In this document: piece by piece, positions 36,101 to 49,777 of the stretch
Layout of the letters: each line of letters opens with the position of its first letter
How positions within the stretch are numbered: the stretch's first letter is position 1
Assembly (NCBI GenBank): GCA_964577675.1
Contig: CAZNZQ010000003.1
Span: forward strand, 3,330 to 67,329
Direction: 5' to 3'
From: an uncultured Candidatus Saccharibacteria bacterium
Lineage (GTDB): Bacteria; Patescibacteriota; Minisyncoccia; Phycocordibacterales; UBA5272
Length of the DNA stretch: 64,000 nucleotides
Position numbers and translations under genes: made by a program
The notes under the pieces: model-generated
The model's input: only the letters and a program-made list of their open reading frames with translations
Databases searched by the model: none
Told to the model about the DNA's origin: nothing

Positions 36101-36117
36101 ATCATAACAAAATTGTC

Positions 36118-36139: not shown

Positions 36140-36180
36140 AGGGTAGGAAAGGCAATAATAATCTTTCCATAAATAGCCCT

Positions 36181-37449
36181 ATGCAAAAATTAGTTTGGAA
36201 AGCAGAAGTAAGGAAAGTTGAAGATTTGGTGATTTGGGATCAAAATCCGAGATCTATAAGCACAGCAAGATTTTCAAAGCTGATTAAGAGAATTAAGGAT
36301 CGTGGTTTTCATAGTTCAATTGTTATTGATACAGATAATACTATTTTATCTGGTAACCAAAGGAAGGAAGCGTTACTTCATCTTGGTATCAAAGAGGTTA
36401 ATGTATTAGTACCTAATCGTAAACTTACCACTGATGAAAGAAATAAAATTGCGCTCGAAAGTAACTTGAACGATGGTGAATGGAATTTTGAAGCATTAAA
36501 GTTATTTGAACTGGATACACTACTGGACATTGGTTTCGATCAAATCGAACTCTCTAAGTTCTGGGATGAAGACAAAGATATTAAAGAAGATACATTTGAT
36601 GTTGAGAAAGAGTTAAAGAAAATTATTAACCCTGTTACAAAACTTGGTGATGTAATTTATCTTGGTAATCATAAGATTATTTGTGGAGACTCTACAAAAA
36701 AAGAAACACTCACAAAGTTATTCAAAGGAGAGAAAGCATCGATGATTTATAGTGACCCTGTCTATAACATTTCTGTGAACTACTCAGGTGGAATTGGGGG
36801 CAAAAAAGACTATGGAGGTAACGTAAATGACACTCGTACTTTTGAAGAGTACAAAACATTTATCAGTGATAGTTTGAAAAGTGCGTTATTTGTATCACAC
36901 GACAATACACACTGCTTTTATTATTGCGATCAGATATTTATCGGACTAATTCAAGAAGTGTATAGGTCTCTCGGAATAAATAACAAGCGTGTATGCCTAT
37001 GGCTAAAAAACTCACAAAATCCAGTCCCTAAGGTGTTCTGCAATAAAGCGTACGAACCTGCAGTATACGGAACTCGTGGAAGACCGTACCTTGCAAATAA
37101 TGTAACAGACCTTAATGAAGTAATGAACAAAGAATTTACTACAGGCAATGATCTCATTTCTCAAGTTGATGACTTCCTTGAAATATGGACAGCAAAACGT
37201 CTTGCTTCTAAAGATTATCAACATGCAACTTCTAAACCAATCACCTTACACGAAAAAGCAATCAAACGCTGTACAAAACCTAATGACATTATTCTCGATA
37301 GTTTCCTAGGCTCAGGTAGCACTCTCCTTGCAGGAGAACAGCTCGGGCGAAGAGTGTATGGGTGTGAGCTAGAGCCAAAATTCTGTGACTTAATTGTGAA
37401 GCGTTATGAGGTACTTACAGGTAAGAAACCGATCTATGAAAAAGAATAA
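36181..37449 (+). CDS. ParB-like nuclease domain fused to N6-adenine/N4-cytosine DNA methyltransferase (phage-type)
   Basis: N-terminal ParB/Srx-like domain (ILSGNQRKEAL). C-terminal MTase motif IV IYSDPVYN (DPPY variant) and motif I DSFLGSGSTLLAGEQLGRRVYGCELEP. Confidence 0.7.
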   Translation: MQKLVWKAEVRKVEDLVIWDQNPRSISTARFSKLIKRIKDRGFHSSIVIDTDNTILSGNQRKEALLHLGIKEVNVLVPNRKLTTDERNKIALESNLNDGEWNFEALKLFELDTLLDIGFDQIELSKFWDEDKDIKEDTFDVEKELKKIINPVTKLGDVIYLGNHKIICGDSTKKETLTKLFKGEKASMIYSDPVYNISVNYSGGIGGKKDYGGNVNDTRTFEEYKTFISDSLKSALFVSHDNTHCFYYCDQIFIGLIQEVYRSLGINNKRVCLWLKNSQNPVPKVFCNKAYEPAVYGTRGRPYLANNVTDLNEVMNKEFTTGNDLISQVDDFLEIWTAKRLASKDYQHATSKPITLHEKAIKRCTKPNDIILDSFLGSGSTLLAGEQLGRRVYGCELEPKFCDLIVKRYEVLTGKKPIYEKE

Positions 37450-37837
37450 AATTCAAGATCAATTCCTAGAAGAGCTTGCGAAAGTGCCAATAGTACAAAT
37501 TGCTTGTGAAAAGTGTAGTTTATCTCGCAATAGTATCTATCGTTGGAGAAAAGAAGATAAAGTGTTTGAAAAGAAAATGGATGAAGCATTATCAAGTGGT
37601 GTTGCTTTTGTGAATGATATGAGTGAATCACAATTACTTACCCTTATCAAAGAGAAGAGTTACTCAGCTATCTCTTTTTGGCTTCGTCATAGAAATGATA
37701 ACTACAAAGATAAAATTGAAATTACTACAAAAGAAGAAAGTGGGGAACTTTCTCCTTCTCAAGCAAAAATTGTAAGACATGCCCTTAAGTTAGCTTCAAT
37801 TACAAAACAGAAATCTATTAGAAAAATTAATAAATAA
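37436..37837 (+). CDS. Putative phage terminase small subunit (HTH)
   Basis: 134 aa with an HTH-like CSLSRNSIYRWRKED, immediately upstream of terL; start chosen at the internal Met (ORF 37406..37837). Confidence 0.45.
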   Translation: MKKNKIQDQFLEELAKVPIVQIACEKCSLSRNSIYRWRKEDKVFEKKMDEALSSGVAFVNDMSESQLLTLIKEKSYSAISFWLRHRNDNYKDKIEITTKEESGELSPSQAKIVRHALKLASITKQKSIRKINK

Positions 37838-37842
37838 CAAGT

Positions 37843-39345
37843 ATGAAATACAACAGCATTGATAAGGGATTATTAAACAAAATGATGAAAGACAAATTAG
37901 TAAGAACGACTATCACTAAAGATAGTTTCTTCTACTTCTTTCATTTCTATTACGCTCACTATGTAAAGTACGAGACGGCAGACTTTCAAAAAGAGATTAT
38001 ACATCTTCTTGAGAAAGGAAATAACGAGAACCTATATGTTGTCGCTTTTCGTGGATCAGGTAAATCAACTATGGCGACAACAGCTTACCCAATATGGGCG
38101 ATACTTGGTAAACAGCAGAAGAAGTTTTGTATCATCTTTTGTCACACACGAATACAAGCAAAACAACATATGATGAATATTAAACAAGAACTAGAGAATA
38201 ATGATTTACTCAAGAAAGATCTCGGACCATTTCAAGAGGAATCTGATGAGTGGGGTTCATATTCTTTGGTGTTCAAAAAACACGGTGCTCGAATTTCTGT
38301 TGCCTCAACCGAACAAAGTATTCGTGGTATTCGTCATAACGAACATCGTCCAGATTTAATAATTTGTGACGATGTGGAAGATGTACAATCGGCTAAAACA
38401 AGGGAAGGTAGAAACAAGACATACAACTGGTTACGAGGTGAGGTAATCCCAACAGGAGACAGAAATACACGGCTTATCCTTATCGGTAACTTGCTTCATG
38501 AAGACTCTCTCCTAATGAGGATTAAAGAAGAGATTAAGAACGGTAAAGCAAAAGGCACTTTTAAGCAGTACCCACTTCTTGATCAAGATAATAACTGTCT
38601 ATGGACTGGGAAGTATCCGACAGAAAAAGATATAGAAGATGAGAAATTAAAAGTGGCTAGTGAAATATCGTGGCAACGAGAGTATCTTCTTCGTATTATA
38701 CCAAGCGATGATCAAGTTATTTATCCTGAATGGATAAAGTTCTACGATGAACTGCACCCCACTTCTCATAAAGCGTACCGTGGTACATATGCAGGTGTTG
38801 ACCTTGCAATATCTACTAGTGACGCCGCTGACTTCACTTCCGTTGTTATGGCTCGTGTATATGGTAGAAGAGATAAATTGCGAATCTATATCCTTCCTAA
38901 TCCTATAAACAAGAAGTTAAACTTTCCTGCTCAGGTTGATCTATTAAAAGATATTAAGAATACTCAAATGCCAAAATCAACAGATAATTTATTTGTTGAA
39001 AGTGTTGCATATCAAGAAGCTCTTCCTCAGATGCTAGAAATGCAAGGAATTAAAGCAGAAGCAATAAAACCTAAAGGAGACAAAAGAACAAGACTTGCAC
39101 TTACTTCTACTTCTATTAAATCAGCGATTGTTAAATTTCCACGACATGGATGTGAAGAATTGATTGAGCAACTGGTAGGTTTTGGTGTAGAAAAACATGA
39201 CGACCTTGCTGATGCTTTTTCTCTGCTTGTTAATACAACACTAGATAAGCATGCAAAAGAAGGAACTATTATTATGGCTTGGATTGGTCCTGGAACAGGT
39301 AGTGACGATATTATTCGTCACTCTGATTATGTAGATGTAGGATAA
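37843..39345 (+). CDS. terL: Phage terminase large subunit (Terminase_6-like)
   Basis: Walker A VVAFRGSGKST, ATPase N-domain, C-terminal RNaseH-like nuclease with acidic residues (DDLADAF); 500 aa. Confidence 0.7.
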   Translation: MKYNSIDKGLLNKMMKDKLVRTTITKDSFFYFFHFYYAHYVKYETADFQKEIIHLLEKGNNENLYVVAFRGSGKSTMATTAYPIWAILGKQQKKFCIIFCHTRIQAKQHMMNIKQELENNDLLKKDLGPFQEESDEWGSYSLVFKKHGARISVASTEQSIRGIRHNEHRPDLIICDDVEDVQSAKTREGRNKTYNWLRGEVIPTGDRNTRLILIGNLLHEDSLLMRIKEEIKNGKAKGTFKQYPLLDQDNNCLWTGKYPTEKDIEDEKLKVASEISWQREYLLRIIPSDDQVIYPEWIKFYDELHPTSHKAYRGTYAGVDLAISTSDAADFTSVVMARVYGRRDKLRIYILPNPINKKLNFPAQVDLLKDIKNTQMPKSTDNLFVESVAYQEALPQMLEMQGIKAEAIKPKGDKRTRLALTSTSIKSAIVKFPRHGCEELIEQLVGFGVEKHDDLADAFSLLVNTTLDKHAKEGTIIMAWIGPGTGSDDIIRHSDYVDVG

Positions 39346-39346
39346 T

Positions 39347-39808
39347 TTAGTGGTTTACACTATAGCCATTATCACTAGCCCATTCCTCAACTGCATCTTC
39401 AATCAAAGATGAATCTATTTCTACATCCCAGTATCCATCCGAACCGTACCCATCTCCTGTTCCATCAGAATTTAATTCTGCATTGACGTATATGTAACCT
39501 CCGTTTGGAAAATGGATTGATTCAACTTCGCCATTTGAAATATCTGCATCTAATGTGTAATAGCCATTACTCTTATGCGAGTACACTTCAACACTTTCAG
39601 TTCCATTGATGTATTCCTTGATCTCATCCCAGTGCTCATCTAAAGCATCATCATAATTGATACTTCTTTCCTTGGAATATCTAGTTGGGGGTTCTTGTTT
39701 ATATTCTGTTTTATAAGAATTATAATTAGTTTTTACTTCTTCTTTTCCAGAATTATGAAATACGGCACTACCAACTATAAGGAGAATAATTATGATAATT
39801 GTAGGCAT
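39347..39808 (-). CDS. Hypothetical secreted/membrane-anchored D/G/Y-rich protein
   Basis: N-terminal hydrophobic anchor IIIIILLIVGSAVF; no motif. Confidence 0.35.
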   Translation of the reverse strand: MPTIIIIILLIVGSAVFHNSGKEEVKTNYNSYKTEYKQEPPTRYSKERSINYDDALDEHWDEIKEYINGTESVEVYSHKSNGYYTLDADISNGEVESIHFPNGGYIYVNAELNSDGTGDGYGSDGYWDVEIDSSLIEDAVEEWASDNGYSVNH

Positions 39809-39870
39809 AATATTTTTAGAATTATAATTACATAAGCTGACATATTAAACCTATTCTACATCTAACTAGA

Positions 39871-41208
39871 TTAGATACAAGTATTCGGTATATGTAATGA
39901 TATTCTTTTATTTGATAACAGTATTTTAGAATTAAGACACTTAAAAAATTCTCTCTTCTCCTCCATTTCTCCCTCTAACAAAATAAACTTAGCATAGTTA
40001 CGAATATCAATATCTTTTACAGATATTGGTGTTTTGTTTCCTAGTAACATATATTGAAACTTTTTGAATCTTTTGACCTCATTAGTTATCTTTTCTTTCA
40101 TTGGCACTATCTGAATATCAAGATCATCAATAAGATCTTTAAGTTGATCTACTAAATCCTCCTCATTAAGAAACCCACAAGGACAATTCTGGTCTCTTGT
40201 TCTCGTGCACTTGTAATAGACGTATCTGTGAACATTACCATTTTGTTGATGTTTAAATTTCTCATCTGCTGTGATACCTGAACCACATAATCCACATGTC
40301 ATTATTCTTGTAAAAGCGAATTCCTTTTGTTCGGTTTTAGGTTCTAATATTTGACTCTTAATTTTCTCTTGAACTAAATCAAAGAGTTCTTTTGTGATAA
40401 TTGGAATGTGTGATCCGTTATACCAATTTCCTGAGTTTTTAGGGAATTCAAACCTTCCGTAATAAAAATGGTTTTGTAGTAATCGATAAAAGTTACCTAA
40501 ACTTAAATGGATATTGTTCTCAGTCTTAAAATCTTTATCATCTTTAAGCCAAGTCCACACCTTTCTACCTGACCATCCGTCATACCCAACTTTTTCAAAC
40601 ATCTCTTTAATAATAGGTGCTCTATCTTTGTCTATAATGGATTCGCATTTCTGATCCATTCTTTTAAACTTGGTATATCCAGTAGGAGGACGACATGGCC
40701 ATAAACCCATCTCTACTCTTGCCCTTAGACCTCTTTTAACATTGATACTTTTGTTATCATTCTCTAACTTTGCTTGAGAACAAAGAATCATAAGTAAAAA
40801 CTTTTCATTAGGAGAATTAGAAAATGTTTGTCCGTATGTTTGTATATGGATTAATTTTCTTTGATCCATTAAATCTACTAAACTTCCTAAATCTCCAGCA
40901 TTACGACTTAATCTATCTGGTGCCCAAGTTAATACTCCATTAAACTTTCCTTGATCTATATCTTGTAACAGCTGTTTATACACTGGTCGCTGACCTGAAG
41001 CTTTAGCACTATGTGATTCTCTTTTAACTTCCACTACATACAACCCTAAACGCTCTGCTATGGCTTCCATTTCTTTAATCTGTGAATCTATCGACAAAGC
41101 TTGCATTTCATCTGATTCAGTAGATTTTCTAGCATATAAACAATATTTAACTCTTACTTCTGACAAAACTATGTTTCCATGAATCTTTCCAATTGTTCTT
41201 GTTTCCAT
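39871..41208 (-). CDS. Large serine recombinase (resolvase/integrase family) with C-terminal zinc ribbon
   Basis: CLYARKSTESDEMQALSIDSQ (catalytic Ser), WAPDRLSRN, recombinase domain, C-terminal CGLCGS...CPCG zinc ribbon; 445 aa. Confidence 0.8.
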   Translation of the reverse strand: METRTIGKIHGNIVLSEVRVKYCLYARKSTESDEMQALSIDSQIKEMEAIAERLGLYVVEVKRESHSAKASGQRPVYKQLLQDIDQGKFNGVLTWAPDRLSRNAGDLGSLVDLMDQRKLIHIQTYGQTFSNSPNEKFLLMILCSQAKLENDNKSINVKRGLRARVEMGLWPCRPPTGYTKFKRMDQKCESIIDKDRAPIIKEMFEKVGYDGWSGRKVWTWLKDDKDFKTENNIHLSLGNFYRLLQNHFYYGRFEFPKNSGNWYNGSHIPIITKELFDLVQEKIKSQILEPKTEQKEFAFTRIMTCGLCGSGITADEKFKHQQNGNVHRYVYYKCTRTRDQNCPCGFLNEEDLVDQLKDLIDDLDIQIVPMKEKITNEVKRFKKFQYMLLGNKTPISVKDIDIRNYAKFILLEGEMEEKREFFKCLNSKILLSNKRISLHIPNTCI

Positions 41209-41555
41209 ATTATATTAATGACAGAGATCACTAGTCTTGCTAAGTCTATGCAGAACTAAAAAAGACGACATTATGAGATTAGGAAGTTACCTACAAAAAC
41301 ACCTTAGCAAAAGACCTTTTATGCGATATAATCAATAGATTAATACAAGAGTATTAAGACGGAACAATTTGCAGTAGCCTAAACCATTGGTTTCCAATGG
41401 CATGGTGAATTAAGTCTAATCAAAGCCAAAAAACCCATCATGTGGGATTTGCTTTGATTAGCCATACCTGGAAACGGGTATGGAGGTCGCAAGACCTCAC
41501 TCACGTGGTGGGCTTTTTGCTTTCCATAAGAGTTTTACCCAAATATAAAAACTTT

Positions 41556-42422
41556 ATGAATATTTTAAAAAAGATACTTTACGGTATAGGAGGGTTATGT
41601 ACATTATTTGTTATTACAGCACTCATCGTTCCGACTCCTAAAAAAGAGGAATCAGTTGCAATTGTAACAACAGCGACAACGACTAAAGAAAAAGAAGTAG
41701 TAGCTACTACAACTAAACCAGTTGTACTTGATAAAAAAGTAGCAGTAACTCAAGCAGTAGTTACAGTTCCAAAAACTGATTCTCAATATACTTATTATTC
41801 TATTACTGATGTCGTAGATGGCGACACAGTTAAGATAAATATTAATGGCACAATCGAAACTTTACGTCTAATTGGTTTAGATACTCCTGAAACTGTTGAT
41901 CCAAGAAAGGAGGTCCAGTGTTTTGGTAAAGAAGCTTCTAATAAAGGAAAGGAGTTACTTACTGGTAAAAAGGTAAGACTTGAAAAAGACACTACTCAAG
42001 GAGAAAAGGATAAGTACGGAAGAACGCTAGCGTATATCTATACTGAAAGTGGAATCTTTTATAACAAGTATATGATCGAACAAGGATATGCTCATGAGTA
42101 TACATATAACTCTGCGTATAAGTATCAAGCAGAATTTAAACAAGCTGAGAAAACTGCTGAAGCAAACAAAGTAGGACTTTGGTCACCAAGTACTTGTAAT
42201 GGCGTTACAACATCAGCACCTAAAACAACTCAAACGACCACATCTACTACTCAAGTCTCTGGGAAATACTACACTTCTTCTGCTTCTAATGCCACAAGAT
42301 ACTACCCTGATACATGCCCAGCGTGGCAAGATCTTTCAAAGTCTAATTTGAGGACATTCAACTCACTTGATGAATTGCTCGCTGTGTATCCTAAGAGAAC
42401 TATTGCTGATAGTTGTAAGTAA
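41556..42422 (+). CDS. Membrane-anchored thermonuclease (SNase-family) with Thr-rich linker and C-terminal extension
   Basis: VVDGDTVKI...LRLIGLDTPET...GRTLAYIY SNase motifs; N-terminal TM; probable start at the internal Met (ORF 41442..42422). Confidence 0.7.
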   Translation: MNILKKILYGIGGLCTLFVITALIVPTPKKEESVAIVTTATTTKEKEVVATTTKPVVLDKKVAVTQAVVTVPKTDSQYTYYSITDVVDGDTVKININGTIETLRLIGLDTPETVDPRKEVQCFGKEASNKGKELLTGKKVRLEKDTTQGEKDKYGRTLAYIYTESGIFYNKYMIEQGYAHEYTYNSAYKYQAEFKQAEKTAEANKVGLWSPSTCNGVTTSAPKTTQTTTSTTQVSGKYYTSSASNATRYYPDTCPAWQDLSKSNLRTFNSLDELLAVYPKRTIADSCK

Positions 42423-42486: not shown

Positions 42487-43005
42487 ATGGTCACACTATA
42501 CCCCTTAAATACTATTTTAACGGTCGGACTTGTAACAGTTTTTCTCTTTCTCCTGCTTCCTCTCATCTTTAATAAGCGTAGACACAAAAGCGGTACAGAT
42601 AAATTTGAAGAGCTGTATAAAAAAATTAGTGAGGATATCAAATATTCTGTAGCTCCAAAGTTTATAGAATTATCACAAGAAACAAATGATCTTTTCGATC
42701 TCTCCGTTGAGATTTGGCGAATGGAACAACGCATTATTAAATCTTCTTCTGACTTACCAGAGAATCAACTTAAAGGGTTAGAAAATTCTATACAAAAACT
42801 AAAACGATATATTGGTAGATACGATATTGAAGTAGTGGATTATAAAAATGTGAAATACAATGAAGGTCTTAACCTTGAAGTTCTGTCTATAGAAAAAGAT
42901 TCTTCACTATCTGAATCAATTATAAAGGAGACGGTCGAGCCGACGGTTATGCATAAAGGTCAGGTGGTTCGTAAAGCAAAGGTAATTTTAATAAAAAATA
43001 ATTAG
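42487..43005 (+). CDS. GrpE-like nucleotide-exchange-factor domain protein with N-terminal TM anchor
   Basis: TM at residues ~10-30, coiled region, C-terminal HKGQVVRKAKVILI resembling the GrpE beta-domain signature (G..lR.A.V.V); sits directly upstream of the Hsp70-like gene. Confidence 0.4.
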   Translation: MVTLYPLNTILTVGLVTVFLFLLLPLIFNKRRHKSGTDKFEELYKKISEDIKYSVAPKFIELSQETNDLFDLSVEIWRMEQRIIKSSSDLPENQLKGLENSIQKLKRYIGRYDIEVVDYKNVKYNEGLNLEVLSIEKDSSLSESIIKETVEPTVMHKGQVVRKAKVILIKNN

Positions 43006-43011
43006 GACTCT

Positions 43012-45525
43012 ATGTCTAACCAACAAAATATTTCAATAGGTATCGATCTTGGAACAACTAATTCGTCTATTGCAATAAATAACAATGGCAATATTGAGAT
43101 TGTAAAAAAAGCGGGAGGAGTAGAGTACACTCCGTCAGTTTTTGGTTTCAATAAAGCTGGCAATAAGGAGGTTGGACAAAAAGCTTACGACAGTTTTTAC
43201 AAAAGCCCTTCAGAAGAAGATACAAAAAACTATAAGACTGAAATTAAGAGACTGATGGGTACTTCAGAATCTTTTTACTTTGAGAGAGCAAATACAAAAA
43301 TGGGACCAGAAGAAATATCTGCTGAAATTCTAAAGAGTTTAAAAGAGGATGTACTAAGAAAATACCCAGACTTTAATACTATTTCTGCTGTAATAACCGT
43401 CCCTGCAGCTTTTTCTGTCTTGCAATCAGAAGCAACAAAGCGAGCAGGAAATCTTGCTGGATTTAAACACGTTGTTTTGCTACAAGAACCAATCGCTGCC
43501 GCTGTTGCTTATGGATTCACAAACATTAAAAATGAGAACTGGCTTATTTATGATCTTGGGGGTGGTACATTTGACGTTGCGTTAGTTGCCTCAAAAGATA
43601 GAGCCCTGTCAGTACTTGGACATAACGGAGATAACTTTCTTGGTGGTAAAAATTTCGACTTGGAAATTGTAGATAAAGTAATTGTGCCAAAGATTTTGGA
43701 AAAGTTTACTATCAGTAATTTTAATAGAGGTAATGAAAAATATAAAGGAGTATTTTCACAATTAAAATTCTTTGCTGAAACAGCAAAGATTGAACTTTCT
43801 GAGTATGAAAAAACTTCAATCATGGTAGAAAATATTGGAAAGGATGATAATGGAGATGAAATTTTTCTAACCATCAATTTTTTGAGAAAGGACTTTGAAA
43901 ATCTAATCAAACCCATGATTGATCGTACTATTGAGCTTTCAAAAGAAACCCTTAAGGATGCAGGAATTAAAAGTAGCTCCGTTACAAGAGTCGTTCTTGT
44001 TGGTGGACCAACTCAGATTCCTTATATCAGAGAAAGAATAGAAGGAGACCTTAAAGTTATAGCAGATGCAACGGTAGACCCTCTTACTGTTGTTGCAAGA
44101 GGAGCTTGTGTTTTCGGAATTGGTCAAAAAATTCCAAAAGAATTTACAGAAGTTTCTTCTTCAAAAATTGATGAGGGTGTGATTCAAATTAATCTTAACC
44201 ATGAATCGCTCACATCAGATACTGAAGAAACAGTTAGTGGTATCATTGATGACTTAAAAGAATCAAGTGACGAATACTACGTACAGATACAATCAGATAG
44301 TGGTTTTTATAATGGTTCAAAGATTAAGTTAAAAAATGGTAAATTTTTTGACACCGTATCTGTTGAGCAAAATAAATCAAATGTTTACTGGGTCTACCTA
44401 TTTGATAAGGAAGGAAATTCTACTCCTATCAGTCCAGACTCATTTATGATTACACATGGGCTTTCAGTTTCGGGTGCTCCTTTACCTCATTCGATAGGTG
44501 TTATTGTTGCTAAAAAAGATCATGTGAGAAATATTGCCTCAAATGTATGCGAAATTATTTTTGAAAAAGGATCTATTCTTCCCGTAAAAAAAGTTATTGA
44601 TGTATACAAAACATCAAGAAAACTTAAGAAAGGAGAAGATAATAATTTAGATATTACGGTTGTTGAGGGCGAATCTGATATTCCTGATCGTAACTCATAT
44701 TTATGTGATTTAGGTATAAACGGTAAGGATTTACCTCACGATCTTCCAGAAGGAACCCCATTAGAGATATCTATAGAGATGAATGAGTCTCGTGAAGTCA
44801 AAGTTACTACATATATCCCTTTAATTGATATGACTTTTAATGCTCGTTCTACCATGCAAGATGAGTCCGTTGAAGTAAAAACCATCGAGTATGATTTAAA
44901 AGTTCAAACTGAAAGAGCTCAGACCGTTTCTGAGAATTGCTCTAGTGAAGAAAAGAATAAACTCAATACTACAATTAACTCAGTAGCAAATAGTCTAAAA
45001 GGTGCCCATGTTGATGAAGATGAAAAACGCAAAGCAAATAAACAACTTAAGGATCTAAAGGTATCAATTGATCAGCTTGAAAAGGAAAAAGAGATGCCGC
45101 AGTTGATTAATGAGTTTAATGAGAGCTTTGCAAAAGTTCAAAAAATAATAATTGATCTTGGTAATGATAAAGATAAGGTTCAACATGAAGAGCGTCTTAA
45201 AAAGATGAAAGAAGAGGGAGACAAAGCAATATCTGAAAATGATAGTGTTCTCTTAATGAGAGTAAATGAACAGATCGGTGAGCTAGGAACTAAAGCAGTA
45301 TTCTCAAATCCTGCGGCTTGGGTCTACCAATTTGGTCAGATTACGAATGGTAGTAAAAAGTTTATTAATGAAAAAGAAGCTGAATATTATACAGAAAAAG
45401 GAAAGCGTGCAATTGAGCTTAGTGACACCGAGGAACTAAAACGGTGTGTTCATAATTTATTACTTCTTCTTCCTTCTGATAGTTATGAGGGTCCGAAAAA
45501 TCATCTTTCGGGTATATCACGATAA
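43012..45525 (+). CDS. Non-canonical Hsp70-family ATPase (837 aa)
   Basis: Hsp70 NBD motifs IGIDLGTTNSSIA, DLGGGTFDVALV, VVLVGGPTQIPYIRE. The ~450-aa C-terminus is not a canonical DnaK substrate-binding domain/lid. Confidence 0.7.
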   Translation: MSNQQNISIGIDLGTTNSSIAINNNGNIEIVKKAGGVEYTPSVFGFNKAGNKEVGQKAYDSFYKSPSEEDTKNYKTEIKRLMGTSESFYFERANTKMGPEEISAEILKSLKEDVLRKYPDFNTISAVITVPAAFSVLQSEATKRAGNLAGFKHVVLLQEPIAAAVAYGFTNIKNENWLIYDLGGGTFDVALVASKDRALSVLGHNGDNFLGGKNFDLEIVDKVIVPKILEKFTISNFNRGNEKYKGVFSQLKFFAETAKIELSEYEKTSIMVENIGKDDNGDEIFLTINFLRKDFENLIKPMIDRTIELSKETLKDAGIKSSSVTRVVLVGGPTQIPYIRERIEGDLKVIADATVDPLTVVARGACVFGIGQKIPKEFTEVSSSKIDEGVIQINLNHESLTSDTEETVSGIIDDLKESSDEYYVQIQSDSGFYNGSKIKLKNGKFFDTVSVEQNKSNVYWVYLFDKEGNSTPISPDSFMITHGLSVSGAPLPHSIGVIVAKKDHVRNIASNVCEIIFEKGSILPVKKVIDVYKTSRKLKKGEDNNLDITVVEGESDIPDRNSYLCDLGINGKDLPHDLPEGTPLEISIEMNESREVKVTTYIPLIDMTFNARSTMQDESVEVKTIEYDLKVQTERAQTVSENCSSEEKNKLNTTINSVANSLKGAHVDEDEKRKANKQLKDLKVSIDQLEKEKEMPQLINEFNESFAKVQKIIIDLGNDKDKVQHEERLKKMKEEGDKAISENDSVLLMRVNEQIGELGTKAVFSNPAAWVYQFGQITNGSKKFINEKEAEYYTEKGKRAIELSDTEELKRCVHNLLLLLPSDSYEGPKNHLSGISR

Positions 45526-45530
45526 AATAT

Positions 45531-46991
45531 ATGTCTTCAATTTTAAAAAACAATGCTTACCACATTCTAGGACTAGAAACCTCTGCTAGCGAAAAGGATA
45601 TCCTGAAACGTTCAAAAGAAATGATTAACCGTCTTAAGGTTGATGATATTCCTGAATACGATTTAGATTTTAATTCATTGGAAAAACTTCGTACAGAAGA
45701 TGGAGTAAAAGATGCCTTAAGAAGACTTCAAGCTCCAAAAAAGAAGATCGAGGAATATTTCTTTTGGTTTCAAATAGCAGACGGAATAGACGAACAAGCA
45801 TTGGATTTTATTAAGCTTAAAAAATATACAGAGGCTATTGATACTTGGGAAAATGTGTCTAACGGTCAAAGTACAAAAGCATTTTTCTATAAAAAGAATC
45901 TTGCGGTTCTCTACTGCTTATTACTTTCTAATGAAGATAATACTGCTTATTTTCATAGCTCATTAGTTATATGGAAAGAACTAGTAGAATCAGAAAAATT
46001 CTGGGCTTCTTTTTCAAAAGTTTATAAACTGCATGATGAGCAAACAGCTAGTGAAGATATTATTAATGACTTCAAAAAACATATAGTAAAATCTCTTGCT
46101 GATATGTATACGGAGTTACATCATGCTCATAAAAATAATGATTACATCAGTGAGTTTCAGAAAGTTTTTTCAATAAAAGGAGGTAAGGCTGAGGAAAGTG
46201 TCTTGGGTCCAGTTTACCAAATAATTAATGATTCAACAGAGAAGCTAGAAAAACTGAAAGTCAGTGAAGATGGGATTCTTGACGCAGAAGAGAAGAAAAT
46301 TATAAAAGAGTCTATTAGGTTGATTCGACAAGAATTAAATAAATTAATTGACCTTGGTTTATATGAAGATAGTCAAACAAAAGTTATACGAGATAGAGTG
46401 GCAGATGTTTTAAGAAGTCTTAGTATCGACTTGCATAATAATTTAAATGAAACTGAGGTTGCATTAGGTCTCGCTAAAATAGCTGAAGAAATTTCAGGTA
46501 CAGGAGACTCTAAAAGTAAGATACAGGCTGATATTGCTACTTTACAGGGAAATCTTGAATATATAGCTAAAGAAGGTAATTTTAATAAAATTGTTGATCC
46601 AATTATGGCTGACATTAAGTCAGGTAATTCAGATAAGGCTATAGCTAAGATTAATGAATATATTTATAAAGCTGATACAGATCAAGAGTTAAAGAAAATT
46701 TTAACAGAAGTAAAAAGTACTCTAGAAGAACGAATAGTACAGCATGGTAAACCAATTAGCAGTGCCCCTTCTATGTTTTCTATTAATGGTGTTGGTACAA
46801 AGGTTTATGGAGATACCTTGTACTTCGTAGTATTGTTTATTCCTCTTTGCCCAATTTCAAGATATTCACTAACTAATAACAAAGATGGGAGTTTTAATTT
46901 TCATGGAAAACTTGAATTAAAACAATGGCAGACTTATTGGAAGTATTGTTTTATTGGTGTGATTATAATTTGGGTTCTATCTTCTCTTTAA
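45531..46991 (+). CDS. J-domain-like protein lacking the HPD motif, C-terminal TM segments
   Basis: NAYHILGLETSASEKDILKRSKEMINRLKVDDIPE has J-domain helix I-II organisation, but HPD is replaced by DDIPE. C-terminal hydrophobic stretches. Confidence 0.35.
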   Translation: MSSILKNNAYHILGLETSASEKDILKRSKEMINRLKVDDIPEYDLDFNSLEKLRTEDGVKDALRRLQAPKKKIEEYFFWFQIADGIDEQALDFIKLKKYTEAIDTWENVSNGQSTKAFFYKKNLAVLYCLLLSNEDNTAYFHSSLVIWKELVESEKFWASFSKVYKLHDEQTASEDIINDFKKHIVKSLADMYTELHHAHKNNDYISEFQKVFSIKGGKAEESVLGPVYQIINDSTEKLEKLKVSEDGILDAEEKKIIKESIRLIRQELNKLIDLGLYEDSQTKVIRDRVADVLRSLSIDLHNNLNETEVALGLAKIAEEISGTGDSKSKIQADIATLQGNLEYIAKEGNFNKIVDPIMADIKSGNSDKAIAKINEYIYKADTDQELKKILTEVKSTLEERIVQHGKPISSAPSMFSINGVGTKVYGDTLYFVVLFIPLCPISRYSLTNNKDGSFNFHGKLELKQWQTYWKYCFIGVIIIWVLSSL

Positions 46992-46995
46992 AAAT

Positions 46996-47592
46996 ATGTC
47001 AGAACATTTAAATTTTGAAACAGACTTTTTGGATAAAAGCTCTCCTGTAAAAAAGAATCACCCTCAGAAAACCCACACTCCTGATAAGGAGAGTACGGGT
47101 TCATATAATTGGAAAAAGATTTTATGGATTGGAGGAGGAGTGTTATTCTTTATTTTTATAATTGCTTCTGACGATGGTAGTTCAAGTAGCACACCTGCTG
47201 CTTCTAATTCAAATAGTTATAAACCAACATCTAATCTAAATTCCTCTGATGAAGTTGCTACAGGTCAGTATATTTGTTCACGTTCCAACCATACACGAGC
47301 CGGTGAGCTTGAACCGAGTGAGTTTGAAAAAAATAGCTTAGAATCTGAAAAGAATCAACTCTCATCTGAGACTGATAGTTTATCATCAGAAAAAAGCCAA
47401 TTAGAAAATGAGTATGTAGACGAATCAGACCAGTCTGCAATTGATACCCATAATTCAGCTATAGACGATTTAAATAGTAGACTGTCTTCTTACCGTGCTA
47501 GACGTTCACAATATTCTGCTTCTATTGATGCTTATAATGCTAAAGTTGATACATATAATAGCTTTTTAACTCAGAACTGTAGACCAAAATAA
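46996..47592 (+). CDS. Hypothetical single-pass membrane protein with Ser-rich and coiled-coil regions
   Basis: TM ILWIGGGVLFFIFIIA, then S-rich segment and heptad-like SLESEKNQLSSETDSLSSEKSQLENEY. Confidence 0.4.
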   Translation: MSEHLNFETDFLDKSSPVKKNHPQKTHTPDKESTGSYNWKKILWIGGGVLFFIFIIASDDGSSSSTPAASNSNSYKPTSNLNSSDEVATGQYICSRSNHTRAGELEPSEFEKNSLESEKNQLSSETDSLSSEKSQLENEYVDESDQSAIDTHNSAIDDLNSRLSSYRARRSQYSASIDAYNAKVDTYNSFLTQNCRPK

Positions 47593-47598
47593 TTTACC

Positions 47599-48678
47599 AT
47601 GACAACACCAACAAAACCAATTCTTCATAATGGATTTAAAGTACAAAATGATATTGTAGTTAAAAGTAGAATTGAACGTATATTCTTCACTGAAGTGTAT
47701 CTACTTTCTAATGAGAAGTTTTTATATATTTTTACTAATCTTAATCCAGAAGAAATTGTAGATCGAGGAGAGAAATATAATTTAATTACTATTGATATAG
47801 TTGGTAAAAGATACTTAGGTGTAATGACTGATAGTCATTCTAATGAAAATATTAGCGATATAGTAGACGATCTTACAGTACTACGTGGACTTGATTGTGT
47901 TGCAGGTATGAAGCCTCTTAAGGATTTACTCTTTAACGAGGTAATCGGTCCTTTGCTTAACCCAGAAAAGTATCAAAAGTTTAAAGTTGGAATACCAAAC
48001 GGAATACTTCTTTTTGGTCCTCCTGGATGCGGTAAGACGTTCATTGTTAAAAAATTAGCTGAGGAACTTGGCTATAATTTTATTGAAATGGCACCATCAT
48101 CTGTTGCTACTTCCTATGTACATGGAGCGGTTGGTAATATAGGTAAAGTCTTTGAGATGGCAAGACTTCAAGCACCGTCAATAGTTTTTATCGATGAAAT
48201 AGAAGGACTTGTTCCAAAAAGAGAAGACCTTGGGTCTCATGCTGATACTAAAAAGGAGGAGATAAATGAATTTCTTATTCAACTAAATAATGCAGGTCAA
48301 AATAAAATCTTAGTAGTTGGGGCAACGAACAGACCACATATGATTGACACGGCCATACTTCGTGCAGGAAGAATGGATAAAAGAGTGTATGTTGGTGCAC
48401 CAGACTTTGAAGCAAGAAGAGATATGTTTAAAATATGTCTCTCGGGTCGTCCGTACGATAAGAATATTGATTTTGAGAAGCTTTCCCACATGTCAGAGAA
48501 CTATGTTGGCTCAGACATCGAACTAATCGTTACAGAGGCTTCTAGGGCAGCTATAACTCAAGACAAGAATATGGTTGATGAGGAAATGCTGGTTAATGCA
48601 ATTAAGAAGTTTAATCCTTCAATCACATCTGAAGAAATTAAATACTATACACAGTTCTCTGATCTAGAAAGATCATAA
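47599..48678 (+). CDS. AAA+ ATPase (classic AAA family) with unique N-terminal domain
   Basis: Walker A LLFGPPGCGKTF, Walker B IVFIDEIE, SRH ATNRPHMIDTAILRAGRMDKRVYVGAPD. Confidence 0.75.
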   Translation: MTTPTKPILHNGFKVQNDIVVKSRIERIFFTEVYLLSNEKFLYIFTNLNPEEIVDRGEKYNLITIDIVGKRYLGVMTDSHSNENISDIVDDLTVLRGLDCVAGMKPLKDLLFNEVIGPLLNPEKYQKFKVGIPNGILLFGPPGCGKTFIVKKLAEELGYNFIEMAPSSVATSYVHGAVGNIGKVFEMARLQAPSIVFIDEIEGLVPKREDLGSHADTKKEEINEFLIQLNNAGQNKILVVGATNRPHMIDTAILRAGRMDKRVYVGAPDFEARRDMFKICLSGRPYDKNIDFEKLSHMSENYVGSDIELIVTEASRAAITQDKNMVDEEMLVNAIKKFNPSITSEEIKYYTQFSDLERS

Positions 48679-48691
48679 TTACATAACTACA

Positions 48692-49006
48692 ATGATTACC
48701 ACCGAACAATCACATTATAGAGTCCTCTTTTCTAAAATAGCTACCATAGCATTGATGATAGCAGTTATACCAATCTGGCCGTACTTTTTTTATCAGTTCC
48801 TTAAAATTGCAATATTTGGAGCATCGGCATTTTCTGTGTACTTGTATCATAAAGAGAAAAATACAAAATGGATGATGATAATGATTGTTATTGCTATCAT
48901 CTTTAATCCAATTAACCCTCTTTATTTTGGTCACTTCCTCTGGTCAATTGTTGATATTGTTGTTGCTATTCTTTTCTTTAAATCACCCAAACCACATCAT
49001 CACTAA
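48692..49006 (+). CDS. Hypothetical small multi-pass membrane protein
   Basis: 104 aa, 3 hydrophobic segments. Confidence 0.35.
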   Translation: MITTEQSHYRVLFSKIATIALMIAVIPIWPYFFYQFLKIAIFGASAFSVYLYHKEKNTKWMMIMIVIAIIFNPINPLYFGHFLWSIVDIVVAILFFKSPKPHHH

Positions 49007-49030: not shown

Positions 49031-49438
49031 ATGTACAGTTATTTACGCAAACGCTTCTTAATGAATGGAAATGAATATAAGTTCTATAAAAAGTTAGACT
49101 CAGCTGTTGGTCTTGAATATAAAATATTACCACAAGTGCATTTTGATGAACTAGTAACTCCAACTAAAGTTTCAGGAGACCGTATTTTTTCTTTTCGACA
49201 CATAAACCAAAAATCAGTTGATTTTGTAGTGTGTAATAAAACCACTTTAGTCCCGCTAGTAGCTATTGAACTTGATGGAAAATCACACTTAAAACAAATG
49301 ACAAAAGACAGGGATGTGGAAGTTGAAAGAATACTAAAAGAGGTAAATTTACCCTTACTTCGTTTTGATAACAATAATGATATGGATATCGTTGGAATTA
49401 GAGAAATAATAAACAAGACCGTATCTTTAAAAGTCTAG
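49031..49438 (+). CDS. DUF2726-like (PD-(D/E)xK nuclease-fold) protein
   Basis: VDFVVCNKTTLVPLVAIELDGKSH, an ExD...K restriction-endonuclease-like core typical of DUF2726. Confidence 0.5.
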   Translation: MYSYLRKRFLMNGNEYKFYKKLDSAVGLEYKILPQVHFDELVTPTKVSGDRIFSFRHINQKSVDFVVCNKTTLVPLVAIELDGKSHLKQMTKDRDVEVERILKEVNLPLLRFDNNNDMDIVGIREIINKTVSLKV

Positions 49439-49514: not shown

Positions 49515-49588
49515 GGTGACCCCACGGAGAGTCGAACTCCGCTTACCGGCATGAAAAGCCGATGTCCTAACCGATAGACGATGGGGCC
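49515..49588 (-). tRNA. tRNA-Glu (anticodon UUC)
   Basis: Reverse complement folds as a cloverleaf: acceptor GGCCCCA/TGGGGTC, D-arm GTC..GAC, anticodon stem TCGGC/GCCGG with loop TTTTCAT (UUC), T-arm GGAG-TTCGACT-CTCC; CCA not fully encoded. Confidence 0.8.
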
Positions 49589-49702: not shown

Positions 49703-49777
49703 GGGCGGTTAGCTCAGTTGGTAGAGCGCCACATTGACGTTGTGGATGTCAGAGGTTCGACTCCTCTATCGCCCACC
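49703..49777 (+). tRNA. tRNA-Val (anticodon GAC)
   Basis: GGGCGGTtaGCTCagttggtaGAGCgCCACAttGACgtTGTGGatgtcAGAGGttcgactCCTCTATCGCCCacc; acceptor, D, anticodon (GAC) and T arms all pair. Confidence 0.8.

What the first reader, a model, noticed from the sequence alone, without database searches (positions are those of the whole stretch)
42487..48678. Non-canonical Hsp70 module: membrane-anchored GrpE-like, 837-aa Hsp70, HPD-less J-like protein, followed by an AAA+ ATPase
A complete but divergent chaperone-like triad is encoded in one orientation with short spacers inside the accessory island. The Hsp70 has intact NBD motifs but an atypical ~450-aa C-terminus. The upstream protein has a TM anchor plus a GrpE-like C-terminal signature. 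The downstream protein has J-domain-like helices, but the catalytic HPD is replaced by DDIPE and it ends in hydrophobic helices. A coiled-coil membrane protein and a classic AAA ATPase follow. This does not look like housekeeping dnaK-dnaJ-grpE. It may be a membrane-associated specialised remodelling machine such as a secretion, phage-resistance or plasmid-like system.
Basis: partly seen in the sequence, partly recalled or inferred. Interest (0 to 1): 0.65.

Follow-up and report, generated by a model that had tools for sequence, protein, structure and literature searches.

The report
Mobile membrane-tethered Hsp70 plus AAA cassette
A mobile gene cassette, found patchily in tiny "candidate phyla radiation" bacteria, encodes a membrane-anchored, rewired Hsp70 chaperone set plus a Cdc48-like unfolding motor and membrane proteins that all carry the same short N-terminal docking tag; I found no paper describing it.

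Summary
Six tightly packed, same-strand genes lie at 42487-49006 inside a low-GC island (0.33 vs 0.43) that also carries a serine recombinase, terminase genes and a SMODS nucleotidyltransferase.

- **Components.** They encode a TM-anchored truncated GrpE homologue and an 837-aa Hsp70. Next come a J-like/TPR-like tail-anchored protein (HPD replaced by IPE), a single-pass coiled-coil protein, a Cdc48-D2-like AAA ATPase and DUF6804.
- **Conservation.** The order GrpE-like, Hsp70, J-like, (membrane partner), AAA is kept in about 40 of 40 species-representative loci. Most are Patescibacteria and the flanks differ.
- **New finding 1.** The genes between the J-like and AAA genes vary: coiled-coil, Cys-rich, Yip1 or RDD proteins. 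All start with the same peptide, L-x-Φ-D-L-D-F-L-D.
- **New finding 2.** In 14 of 51 long J-like proteins the partner's ectodomain is fused to the J-like C-terminus and the tag is missing.
- **Rewiring.** The Hsp70 has lost the DnaK R167 contact (V155), matching the lost HPD.

Best reading: a membrane-tethered, non-canonical Hsp70/AAA remodelling machine that docks tagged membrane partners. It travels as mobile cargo, and a conflict or defence role is plausible but untested. It is not housekeeping dnaK-dnaJ-grpE. No description was found.

The parts
42487..43005 (+). Membrane-anchored truncated GrpE homologue (172 aa). It has an N-terminal TM helix (residues 1-31) and a helical segment, followed by the GrpE-type four-helix-bundle helix and the C-terminal beta domain. 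The long N-terminal dimerisation helix of canonical GrpE is absent.
   Evidence: ORF. TM. Pfam GrpE 23.1 bits, E=6.7e-5, profile positions 61-164 of 165. PF01025 in 17 of 18 family members, best E=1.7e-8. Present in 41 of 44 loci, directly upstream of the Hsp70 gene.
43012..45525 (+). 837-aa DnaK-derived Hsp70. It has an ATPase-competent NBD (1-370) and a low-confidence linker (381-403), then an inserted beta domain (405-481), SBD-beta (495-614) and an extended helical lid (622-837). The DnaK R167 equivalent is V155 (nt 43474-43476).
   Evidence: PF00012 E=2.9e-75. NCBIfam DnaK 269 bits against a cut-off of 648. AlphaFold2 model pLDDT 80.3. Foldseek aligns 640-790 columns to full-length DnaK structures, E down to 1e-36. 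hhalign SBD-beta 512-600 against DnaK SBD, E=7e-4. R167 to V read from the alignment. Whole length highly conserved, mean column identity 77%.
45531..46991 (+). J-like scaffold protein (486 aa). It has a degenerate J domain (residues about 6-77, with HPD replaced by I40-P41-E42 at nt 45648-45656) and an all-alpha TPR/Sel1/14-3-3-like solenoid (about 85-405). A small beta unit (413-461) and a C-terminal tail-anchor helix (465-485) follow.
   Evidence: Model pLDDT 84.6. hhalign against a J-domain profile 93%, 72 columns. Weak J-domain and TPR hits in PDB. Weak 14-3-3, TPR and Sel1 fold hits. HPD present in 2 of 99 representatives. Two C-terminal variants and a partner fusion. The family has 225 representatives at E<=1e-30.
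46996..47592 (+). Tagged single-pass membrane partner (198 aa). It starts with an N-terminal cytoplasmic 'DFLD box' (LNFETDFLD, nt 47008-47034) and a Lys/Pro-rich linker, followed by a TM helix (39-60). The extracytoplasmic part is a Ser-rich linker plus a coiled-coil hairpin bracketed by Cys94 and Cys195.
   Evidence: The motif occurs once in the six-frame translation of the window. Among 694 called genes of the 45 sources (44 loci plus the window's island) it is found only in genes lying between the J-like and AAA genes.
47599..48678 (+). Single-ring classic AAA ATPase (359 aa), closest to the D2 domain of Cdc48/p97/VAT. It has its own conserved N-domain (1-95). Walker A is GPPGCGKT and Walker B is DEIE. 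The pore loop is aromatic-V/I-His, and the arginine fingers read R-x-G-R.
   Evidence: PF00004 E=9.4e-34. VAT D2 159 bits, and p97 and Cdc48 E about 1e-77 to 1e-81. Pore-loop aromatic conserved in 34 of 34. N-domain conservation. PADLOC IetA 1e-34, but NCBIfam IteA 110.8 bits against a cut-off of 510.
48692..49006 (+). DUF6804 small multi-pass membrane protein (104 aa), a frequent sixth gene of the cassette.
   Evidence: PF20619 E=3.8e-20. Found in 23-25 of 44 loci, usually directly after the AAA gene.
49031..49438 (+). DUF2726 (nuclease-related fold) protein, 24 nt downstream on the same strand. It is probably neighbouring island cargo rather than part of the cassette.
   Evidence: PF10881 E=4.1e-25. 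No homologue in any of the 44 loci searched with it (L001-L044) nor in L045.

Best explanation
The block is a self-contained mobile cassette that builds a membrane-tethered, non-canonical Hsp70 machine coupled to a Cdc48-like unfoldase.

SHOWN
- The four core genes are always linked in the same order: TM-GrpE-like, 837-aa Hsp70, J-like scaffold, AAA.
- The Hsp70 keeps its ATPase residues and an SBD-like domain.
- The J domain has lost HPD, and the Hsp70 has lost the matching R167.
- The AAA keeps Walker motifs, arginine fingers and an aromatic pore loop.
- The variable membrane proteins encoded between the J-like and AAA genes (coiled-coil, Cys-rich, Yip1, RDD) all begin with one conserved cytoplasmic peptide, L-x-Φ-D-L-D/E-F-L-D. 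In recurrent fusions this peptide is replaced by a covalent link to the J-like protein.

INFERRED
- The J-like/TPR-like scaffold docks the tag, and so recruits the membrane partner and its extracytoplasmic domain to the Hsp70.
- The GrpE-like protein resets the Hsp70 at the membrane.
- The Hsp70 and the AAA translocase then bind or pull on the partner's unstructured N-terminal tail. This would remodel, extract or activate the partner.
- The cassette rides in integrative elements and defence-island-like neighbourhoods. Its biological role is therefore most likely in conflict, such as phage defence, abortive infection or superinfection exclusion, with the membrane partners acting as sensors or effectors.
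For: Synteny: the same gene order is found in L001-L045 with unrelated flanks.

Membrane tethering: TM in the GrpE-like protein and the partner, and a tail anchor in the J-like protein.

Tag: under the strict 9-residue pattern, 44 motif hits among 694 genes, all in the genes between J-like and AAA or in frameshifted fragments of them. Positions are 5-26 from the called start. This covers 28 of 32 coiled-coil, 9 of 9 Cys-rich, 4 of 4 RDD and 1 of 7 Yip1 members. The other six Yip1 members carry a two-residue-shorter L-(D/N)-F-(N/D)-F-L-D variant, seen by eye only.

Fusions: 14 of 51 long J-like proteins carry the partner's ectodomain at the C-terminus, and none keeps the tag (P0211).

Co-adapted Hsp70/J interface: HPD is kept in 2 of 99 and R167 is V155, nearly invariant.

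Active motors: invariant NBD catalytic residues, and AAA motifs and pore loop.

Mobility and context:
- GC drop and tRNA border.
- A serine recombinase, often together with TerL and ParB-methylase genes, lies next to the cassette in 12 loci.
- Neighbours include R-M enzymes, Fic and integrases.
- Gabija-like genes lie directly upstream in L045.
- A SMODS nucleotidyltransferase lies in the same island of the window.
- Only about 40 hits among 185,579 species representatives, although the scan used only two peptide patterns.
Against: - No experiment or complex prediction links the tag to any particular binding site. It could bind the Hsp70 SBD, the AAA N-domain or the inserted beta domain instead of the J-like scaffold.
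- PADLOC has no model for the Hsp70, J-like or GrpE-like proteins.
- The defence role rests only on neighbourhood, and many loci have housekeeping neighbours.
- A four-gene version without any tagged partner exists (L039, L042, L043), so the partners are not obligatory.
- No nuclease, protease or other obvious effector is invariably linked.
- J-domain homology is weak by direct HMM: PF00226 in 1 of 26 members.
Confidence: 0.45

Rival explanations
1. The cassette is a specialised membrane-protein quality-control or stress-tolerance chaperone with no role in conflict. This would be analogous to E. coli HscC with its tail-anchored J-proteins DjlB and DjlC. It would fold, insert or clear a small set of membrane clients, here its own co-encoded tagged proteins or host membrane proteins.
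For: It has the same overall logic as HscC/DjlB/DjlC: a divergent Hsp70 plus a tail-anchored J-type co-chaperone of about 480 aa encoded next to it, acting at the plasma membrane (PMC8215388, read). Membrane anchors are present. S49 peptidase genes lie downstream in 6 of 44 loci. Some loci have purely housekeeping neighbours.
Against: The distribution is patchy and mobile, the cassette sits in a low-GC island, and recombinases, R-M and Gabija genes are its neighbours. Unlike HscC, it has a dedicated NEF and an AAA unfoldase, and its J protein lacks HPD.
Confidence: 0.2
2. The cassette is a life-cycle module of an integrative phage-like element of CPR bacteria. It would serve the element, for example in particle or surface-structure assembly, membrane remodelling for release, or display of element-encoded surface proteins, rather than defend the host.
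For: The cassette lies next to a large serine recombinase in 12 of 44 loci. In about half of these, TerL, TerS and ParB-methyltransferase genes are present too (6, 5 and 6 loci), as they are in the window. A LexA-like repressor lies in the window's island. An XRE-type HTH gene lies directly upstream in 13 loci. One IMG/VR contig carries the cassette.
Against: Most loci lack the terminase and recombinase genes. Only 1 of 2.9 million IMG/VR contigs and none of 50,697 phage genomes carry it. In the IMG/VR contig its neighbours are Gabija-like defence genes, not structural genes. No capsid or tail genes were seen in the window's island.
Confidence: 0.2
3. The cassette is a polypeptide translocation or dislocation motor. 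It would be a bacterial analogue of the mitochondrial PAM motor (mtHsp70, Pam18, J-like Pam16, Mge1) or of ERAD (Hsp70 plus Cdc48). It would pull chains across or out of the membrane, and the tag would serve as the handle.
For: The part list is formally similar: a membrane-tethered Hsp70 cycle with a GrpE-type NEF and an HPD-less J-like protein, plus a Cdc48-D2-like AAA with an intact pore loop. The tagged partners have long unstructured N-terminal tails before the TM.
Against: The cassette encodes no channel or translocon component and no bona fide HPD J-protein partner. The resemblance is recalled from general knowledge of those systems, not tested here.
Confidence: 0.1
4. The block is the housekeeping DnaK-DnaJ-GrpE system of this genome, merely divergent because CPR proteins are divergent.
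For: No other dnaK, dnaJ or grpE lies within the 64-kb window. The NBD is DnaK-like.
Against: - NCBIfam DnaK score is 269 against a cut-off of 648.
- HPD and R167 are lost.
- The genes lie in a low-GC island beside a recombinase.
- Flanks differ in every locus.
- About 40 hits in 185,579 species representatives.
- Relatives with 97% identical TsaD have none of the island genes within 10 kb of the same rlmH.
- The literature reports that DnaK derivatives were never found without a bona fide DnaK in the genomes surveyed (PMC13580251).
Confidence: 0.03

Closest known systems
Canonical bacterial DnaK-DnaJ-GrpE chaperone system
   Same: It has an Hsp70 with a DnaK-type NBD, an SBD-beta and a helical lid, a GrpE-homologous exchange factor, and a partner whose N-terminus is homologous to a J domain. 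All three are encoded together.
   Different: - The Hsp70 is 837 aa, with an inserted beta domain and a lid about 100 aa longer.
- It lacks the R167 contact and an obvious VLLLD linker.
- The J domain lacks HPD and is followed by a TPR-like solenoid and a tail anchor instead of G/F, zinc-finger and CTD regions.
- The GrpE-like protein has a TM helix instead of the long dimerisation helix.
- An AAA ATPase and tagged membrane proteins are obligatory or frequent neighbours.
- The cassette is mobile and patchily distributed.
E. coli HscC with tail-anchored J-proteins DjlB/DjlC (PMC8215388)
   Same: It is a specialised, divergent Hsp70 encoded beside a tail-anchored J-type co-chaperone of about 480 aa that places the chaperone at the cytoplasmic membrane.
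   Different: According to the review, HscC is short (550-580 aa), needs no NEF, and DjlB/DjlC are J-domain proteins, which in the canonical case carry HPD. Here the Hsp70 is long, a NEF homologue is present, HPD is lost, and an AAA and tagged partners are added.
Mitochondrial presequence-translocase motor (mtHsp70, Pam18, Pam16, Mge1, Tim44) - from general knowledge
   Same: It is a membrane-tethered Hsp70 cycle with a GrpE-type NEF and a J-like subunit that lacks HPD.
   Different: There is no true J partner, no Tim44-like tether and no channel in the cassette. The similarity is one of logic only, with no evidence of homology beyond the shared domains.
Cdc48/p97/VAT AAA unfoldases
   Same: The AAA module is most similar to their D2 domains (E about 1e-77 to 1e-81). 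It has Walker A and B motifs, arginine fingers and an aromatic pore loop.
   Different: It has a single AAA module of 359 aa with an unrelated 95-aa N-domain. The pore loop is Ar-Φ-His instead of Ar-Φ-Gly, and there is no D1.
Hsp70-containing conflict systems predicted in silico: CoCoNuT CnuD (PMC11090510) and GAP1-N2 GTPase systems with HSP70, GrpE and DnaJ-fused proteins (PMC7159879)
   Same: Both are precedents for Hsp70-family proteins, in one case with GrpE and DnaJ-domain partners, recruited into predicted defence or conflict operons.
   Different: Those systems are built around McrBC-type GTPases or GAP1-N2 GTPases, and none is present here. CnuD has degenerate Walker motifs, whereas here the NBD residues are invariant.
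IetAS anti-phage system (IetA AAA ATPase plus IetS protease)
   Same: The AAA protein hits the PADLOC IetA models (1.1e-34).
   Different: The NCBIfam IteA score is 110.8 against a cut-off of 510. No IetS-type subtilase is present. The hit reflects shared classic-AAA ancestry.

Membership tests
Canonical DnaK (Hsp70) equivalog | Full-length score above the curated DnaK cut-off | tested here: not met
   NF001413 269 bits against a cut-off of 648, and TIGR02350 263.9 against 822.55. Only the NBD (8-369) aligns.
Hsp70 superfamily | Actin-like NBD with catalytic Asp, Lys, Glu and Thr residues, followed by SBD-beta and a helical lid | tested here: met
   PF00012 E=2.9e-75. D12, K79, E159, D181 and T186 are invariant in 27 sequences. 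Foldseek alignments of 640-790 columns to full-length DnaK. SBD-beta hhalign E=7e-4.
Canonical DnaK-DnaJ pairing | HPD tripeptide in the J domain | tested here: not met
   The window has I40-P41-E42. 2 of 99 family representatives have HPD.
Canonical DnaK-DnaJ pairing | DnaK R167, the genetic partner of DnaJ D35 (general knowledge), is conserved | tested here: not met
   The equivalent residue is V155 in the alignment to Geobacillus and M. tuberculosis DnaK, and it is nearly invariant in the family.
J-domain protein family (PF00226) | Significant match to the J-domain model over helices I-IV | tested here: inconclusive
   PF00226 is hit by 1 of 26 members (E=0.0016). PDB J-domains reach E=0.1. 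The model has the four-helix layout.
GrpE (PF01025) | Match to the GrpE model (four-helix bundle plus beta domain) | tested here: met
   The window protein scores 23.1 bits, just under the gathering score of 25.8. 17 of 18 relatives match at E<=0.01, best 1.7e-8, collinear over profile positions 61-164.
GrpE (canonical architecture) | Long N-terminal dimerisation/thermosensor helix in a soluble protein | tested here: not met
   Residues 1-31 are a TM helix and only about 25 residues precede the matched region. NCBIfam GrpE equivalog 15 bits against 212.
HscC/DjlB/DjlC system | Short Hsp70 (550-580 aa) without a NEF, and a tail-anchored J protein with a functional J domain | tested here: not met
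   The Hsp70 is 837 aa, a NEF homologue is present, and HPD is absent. Only the tail anchor is shared (features from PMC8215388).
IetAS defence system | IetA above the curated cut-off, plus an adjacent IetS protease | tested here: not met
   NF042959 110.8 bits against 510. No protease lies in the cassette.
Cdc48/VAT family | Tandem D1-D2 AAA modules with a Cdc48-type N-domain | tested here: not met
   There is a single AAA module. TIGR01243 176.9 bits against 802.65. Only residues 99-355 align, and they match both D1 and D2 (best to D2) of the VAT, p97 and Cdc48 chains.
CoCoNuT / GTPase-centric Hsp70 conflict systems | McrB-like or GAP1-N2 GTPase core | tested here: not met
   No such gene is called in the cassette or next to it in the window, and none appeared among the most frequent neighbour families in the loci.
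Anti-phage defence system (generic) | Protection against phage when expressed | not testable with these tools
   Only neighbourhood evidence is available: R-M, Gabija-like, SMODS, Fic and recombinase genes.

The most novel reading that the evidence does not exclude
The cassette is a previously unrecognised class of membrane-embedded conflict system, either phage defence or mobile-element warfare. An extracytoplasmic sensor or effector protein is coupled through a short N-terminal DFLD docking tag to a dedicated, rewired Hsp70 cycle (J domain without HPD, membrane GrpE) and a Cdc48-like unfoldase. ATP-driven remodelling or extraction of the tagged membrane protein would be the switch that triggers or executes the response.
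Probability: 0.3. Interest if true: 0.85.

Novelty: new variant of a known kind. Interest (0 to 1): 0.68.

Why it matters

This cassette is a large family. The J-like profile finds 225 representatives at E<=1e-30 and 800 at E<=1e-10. The family comes with its own exchange factor, its own HPD-less J-type adaptor, a dedicated unfoldase and a recognisable client or partner tag.

That gives a complete, testable parts list for several questions:
- How an Hsp70 can be driven without the HPD-R167 contact.
- How an Hsp70 and a Cdc48-like AAA cooperate at a bacterial membrane.
- What mobile elements of the uncultured CPR bacteria carry as cargo.

If the conflict role holds, it would add a chaperone-based mechanism to the repertoire of prokaryotic immunity.

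Tried and rejected
- PADLOC gave nothing for the Hsp70, J-like or GrpE-like proteins. The IetA hit of the AAA is generic.
- Single-sequence and profile searches of PDB with the J-like and GrpE-like proteins gave no significant hits.
- Full-length fold searches with the J-like model gave only weak 14-3-3, TPR and Sel1 solenoid matches, with no domain-level J match.
- The phage genome collection had no homologue of the J-like protein, and IMG/VR had only one contig. A mainly phage-borne origin was therefore set aside.
- No att-like direct repeats bound the island.
- Promoter and terminator scans were at or near shuffle level and uninformative.
- I tried to show an empty site in close relatives. 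Synteny holds up to rlmH and then breaks, but the relatives carry other genes there, so this shows a variable region and not a clean insertion.
- The source record of the window could not be recovered. TsaD homologues only place the host in Parcubacteria/CPR.
- Literature searches found no description of this cassette. The Hsp70-containing conflict systems in PMC11090510 and PMC7159879 were rejected as memberships because their GTPase cores are absent.
- No NBD phylogeny against DnaK, HscA and HscC was built. Only HMM scores are available: DnaK 269 bits against HscA 227.

Full report
**Observation**

- 42487-43005 (172 aa)
- 43012-45525 (837 aa)
- 45531-46991 (486 aa)
- 46996-47592 (198 aa)
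- 47599-48678 (359 aa)

They are separated by only 4-6 nt. A sixth gene follows after 13 nt (48692-49006, DUF6804) and a seventh after 24 nt (49031-49438, DUF2726).

The block lies in a low-GC stretch. GC is 0.32-0.36 from about 29.5 to 49.5 kb, against 0.41-0.46 on both sides. The stretch ends at tRNA-Glu (49515-49588, minus strand) and tRNA-Val (49703-49777).

The same island also carries:
- a large serine recombinase (39871-41208, minus strand)
- a terminase large subunit-like gene (37843-39345)
- a ParB-N6/N4 methyltransferase (36181-37449)
- a LexA-like repressor
- a SMODS nucleotidyltransferase (33733-34719, minus strand)
- a membrane-anchored staphylococcal-nuclease homologue (41442-42422)

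TsaD next to the island has its closest named relatives in Parcubacteria MAGs. The host is therefore a CPR/Patescibacteria bacterium.

**The proteins**

*GrpE-like (172 aa).*
- It has an N-terminal TM helix.
- Its match to Pfam GrpE is collinear but sub-threshold: 23.1 bits against a cut-off of 25.8.
- Across 18 relatives the match is hit 17 times, with best E=1.7e-8.
- It is thus a real but truncated GrpE homologue. The long N-terminal helix is replaced by a membrane anchor.

*Hsp70 (837 aa).*
- It has a DnaK-type NBD (PF00012 E=2.9e-75). It falls far below the curated DnaK and HscA cut-offs.
- The catalytic residues are invariant in 27 homologues, and the whole length is conserved.
- The AlphaFold2 model (pLDDT 80.3) resolves the 'atypical C-terminus' into four parts. 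These are a low-confidence linker (381-403), an extra beta domain (405-481), an eight-stranded SBD-beta-like domain (495-614) and a long helical region (622-837).
- Foldseek aligns 640-790 columns to full-length DnaK structures.
- hhalign places residues 512-600 on the DnaK SBD-beta.
- In the alignment to DnaK, the arginine equivalent to E. coli R167 is a nearly invariant valine, V155. From general knowledge, R167 is the genetic partner of DnaJ D35.

*J-like protein (486 aa).*
- It has no Pfam match of its own.
- Its model (pLDDT 84.6) begins with four helices laid out like a J domain.
- PDB J domains are among the few weak hits.
- The HPD position reads IPE in the window and x-P-(E/D/S) family-wide. 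Only 2 of 99 representatives have HPD.
- An all-alpha solenoid follows, with weak TPR, 14-3-3 and Sel1 similarity. Then come a small beta unit and a C-terminal hydrophobic helix.

*AAA protein (359 aa).*
- It is closest to the D2 modules of VAT, p97 and Cdc48.
- It keeps Walker A and B motifs, arginine fingers and a pore loop with a conserved aromatic residue (34 of 34).
- It has its own conserved 95-residue N-domain.

**Conservation and mobility**

The Hsp70 has hundreds of full-length homologues at 63-100% identity and an almost fixed length of 837 aa. Where named, they come from many CPR lineages. The J-like profile finds 225 cluster representatives at E<=1e-30 and 800 at E<=1e-10.

In 40 loci from species-representative genomes and 5 further loci, the order is kept essentially without exception: GrpE-like, Hsp70, J-like, (membrane protein), AAA, (DUF6804). 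The flanks differ from locus to locus.

What lies next to the cassette:
- A large serine recombinase lies next to it in 12 loci. In about half of these it comes with TerL and ParB-methylase genes like those of the window.
- Among 141 neighbouring proteins the commonest families are recombinases, DNA methylases, S49 peptidases, integrases, Fic and restriction enzymes. Ordinary housekeeping genes occur alongside them.
- In the single IMG/VR contig, the cassette follows a GajA/GajB-like pair and a Cas4-like nuclease.
- No phage genome in the INPHARED set has a homologue.

Two loci have in-frame TGA codons in the Hsp70 gene exactly where the window protein has glycine. The cassette has therefore resided long enough in code-25 lineages to be recoded.

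Several hits sit in MAGs labelled as non-CPR phyla or archaea. These loci were not checked for mis-binning against real transfer. One of them (L026, labelled Bacteroidales) has the same gene map and per-gene identities as the Gracilibacteria locus L025. That is consistent with mis-binning.

Relatives whose TsaD is 97% identical share synteny up to rlmH. They carry none of the island genes in the next 10 kb.

Together these points exclude a housekeeping role in a syntenic core position. I could not inspect the rest of the genome for a canonical dnaK operon, and none lies in the window.

**New findings**

*A shared N-terminal tag.* The gene or genes between the J-like and AAA genes are not always the coiled-coil protein. 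Depending on the locus they encode one of four types:
- a single-pass protein with an extracytoplasmic Cys-bracketed coiled coil, as in the window
- a single-pass protein with Cys-rich repeats
- a Yip1-domain multi-pass protein
- an RDD-family multi-pass protein

All of them start with the same peptide at about residues 4-15: (H/K)-L-(D/N)-Φ-(D/E)-L-(D/E)-F-L-D-(K/E). The Yip1 group has a two-residue-shorter form. A Lys/Pro/Ser-rich linker and the first TM helix follow.

With a strict pattern the motif occurs 44 times among 694 called genes, and every occurrence is in these genes. It occurs once in the six-frame translation of the window, at 47008.

*Rosetta-stone fusions.* 14 of 51 long J-like proteins carry a C-terminal extension after the tail anchor. 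The extension is homologous to the TM-distal part of the coiled-coil or Cys-rich partners. None of these fusions keeps the tag (P0211).

This is Rosetta-stone evidence that the J-like scaffold and the tagged membrane proteins act together. It also suggests that the tag is a docking element that a covalent link makes dispensable.

A four-gene version without any tagged partner also exists (L039, L042, L043). The core is therefore GrpE-like, Hsp70, J-like and AAA.

**Mechanism**

*Shown:*
- obligatory linkage of the four core genes
- membrane anchoring of two to four components
- intact motor motifs in both ATPases
- correlated loss of HPD and of the DnaK R167 contact
- a shared tag on the variable partners
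- partner/J-like fusions

*Inferred:*
- The J-like scaffold, through its solenoid or its C-terminal domain, docks the tag and brings the partner's disordered cytoplasmic tail to the Hsp70.
- The GrpE-like protein recycles the Hsp70 at the membrane.
- The Cdc48-like AAA threads or pulls the same tail, remodelling, extracting or activating the partner.
- Because the partners expose coiled-coil or Cys-rich domains outside the cell, the assembly spans the membrane. It could transmit an outside event inward, or actuate an outside or membrane effector.
- The mobile, defence-island-like context makes a conflict function the most likely biological role (phage defence, abortive infection or exclusion). 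That step rests on neighbourhood only.

I put about 0.45 on this overall reading. The rivals are:
- non-conflict membrane proteostasis of the HscC/DjlB/DjlC type (0.2)
- a life-cycle function of a phage-like integrative element (0.2)
- a translocation or dislocation motor (0.1)
- a housekeeping system (0.03)

**Comparison with known systems**

The cassette works like an Hsp70/J/NEF cycle, but it fails the membership tests for canonical DnaK-DnaJ-GrpE. Those tests were the curated cut-offs, HPD, R167 and GrpE architecture.

It shares with HscC/DjlB/DjlC the tail-anchored J-type partner at the membrane (PMC8215388). It differs in Hsp70 length, in having a NEF, in lacking HPD and in having the AAA.

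An HPD-less J-like subunit together with a GrpE-type NEF at a membrane recalls the mitochondrial PAM motor (general knowledge). No true J partner or channel is present here.

Hsp70-family proteins have been predicted in conflict systems: CoCoNuT CnuD (PMC11090510) and GAP1-N2 GTPase systems with HSP70, GrpE and DnaJ (PMC7159879). The defining GTPases are absent here.

The AAA is not IetA by the curated cut-off, and no IetS is present.

I found no paper describing this cassette. A 2026 review calls bacterial DnaK derivatives largely unexplored.

**Verdict**

The finding is a new variant of a known kind: an Hsp70 system rewired, membrane-tethered, coupled to a Cdc48-like AAA and to tag-bearing membrane partners, and spread as mobile cargo in CPR bacteria. 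Interest 0.68.

Noticed in passing
window 33733-34719 (-), with 33258-33731 (-), 32708-33256 (-) and 31425-32681 (-): A SMODS/CD-NTase-like nucleotidyltransferase (PF18144 E=2e-9) heads a minus-strand run with three uncharacterised genes. One of them is a 182-aa protein with predicted membrane helices. It looks like a CBASS-type module in the same island.
   Followed up: partly
window 34688-41208: This stretch holds a LexA-like repressor, a ParB-N6/N4 methyltransferase, small and large terminase-like genes and a large serine recombinase, with no capsid or tail genes seen. The same SerRec/TerL/ParB-methylase set lies next to the Hsp70 cassette in several other loci (L011, L024, L027, L040 and others). 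It may be a satellite-like integrative element of CPR bacteria.
   Followed up: partly
window 41442-42422 (+): A membrane-anchored staphylococcal-nuclease homologue lies directly upstream of the cassette. It matches the PADLOC candidate model C3a212 (SNc+LTD) at E=9.9e-47. A homologue also occurs in L031.
   Followed up: no
L039 1149-3191 (+): A second atypical Hsp70 (680 aa) lies upstream of the cassette in this locus. Its C-terminus carries an HELLH (HExxH-type) zinc-metallopeptidase-like motif, and it keeps the R167-equivalent arginine.
   Followed up: no
L003 10001-12514 and L019 1202-3712: In-frame TGA codons in the Hsp70 gene fall exactly on glycine positions of the window protein: 1 in L003 and 3 in L019. 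These hosts therefore use genetic code 25, and the cassette has been recoded in them.
   Followed up: yes
L045 8-5322: In the only IMG/VR contig with the cassette, the genes directly upstream are a GajA-like OLD ATPase-TOPRIM protein, a GajB-like UvrD helicase and a DUF2779/Cas4-like nuclease. A trypsin-like peptidase lies downstream.
   Followed up: partly
L006, L009, L020, L023-L027, L029, L030, L032, L033, L035 (directly upstream of the GrpE-like gene in most, e.g. L027 4729-4938): A ~69-aa XRE/Cro-type HTH protein (PF01381 E=1.4e-15) precedes the cassette in 13 loci. It may be its transcriptional regulator. It is absent from the window.
   Followed up: partly
L007, L010, L028, L030, L031, L034 (downstream of DUF6804): A membrane-anchored S49 (SppA-type) peptidase recurs downstream of the cassette in 6 loci, and in five of them a ~192-aa secreted protein does too. 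They may be accessory components of one subtype.
   Followed up: no
L012, L014, L017, L023, L024, L026, L037-L039, L042-L044 (record titles): Cassette-bearing contigs are binned as Omnitrophota, Bdellovibrionales, Bacteroidales, Akkermansia, Gammaproteobacteria, Thaumarchaeota and Nanoarchaeota MAGs. L026 (Bacteroidales) has the same gene map and per-gene identities to the window as the Gracilibacteria locus L025, which suggests that at least some are mis-binned CPR contigs.
   Followed up: partly
window 30073-31428 (+): A 451-aa protein at the left edge of the island has no Pfam match at E<=0.01. Its function is unknown.
   Followed up: no
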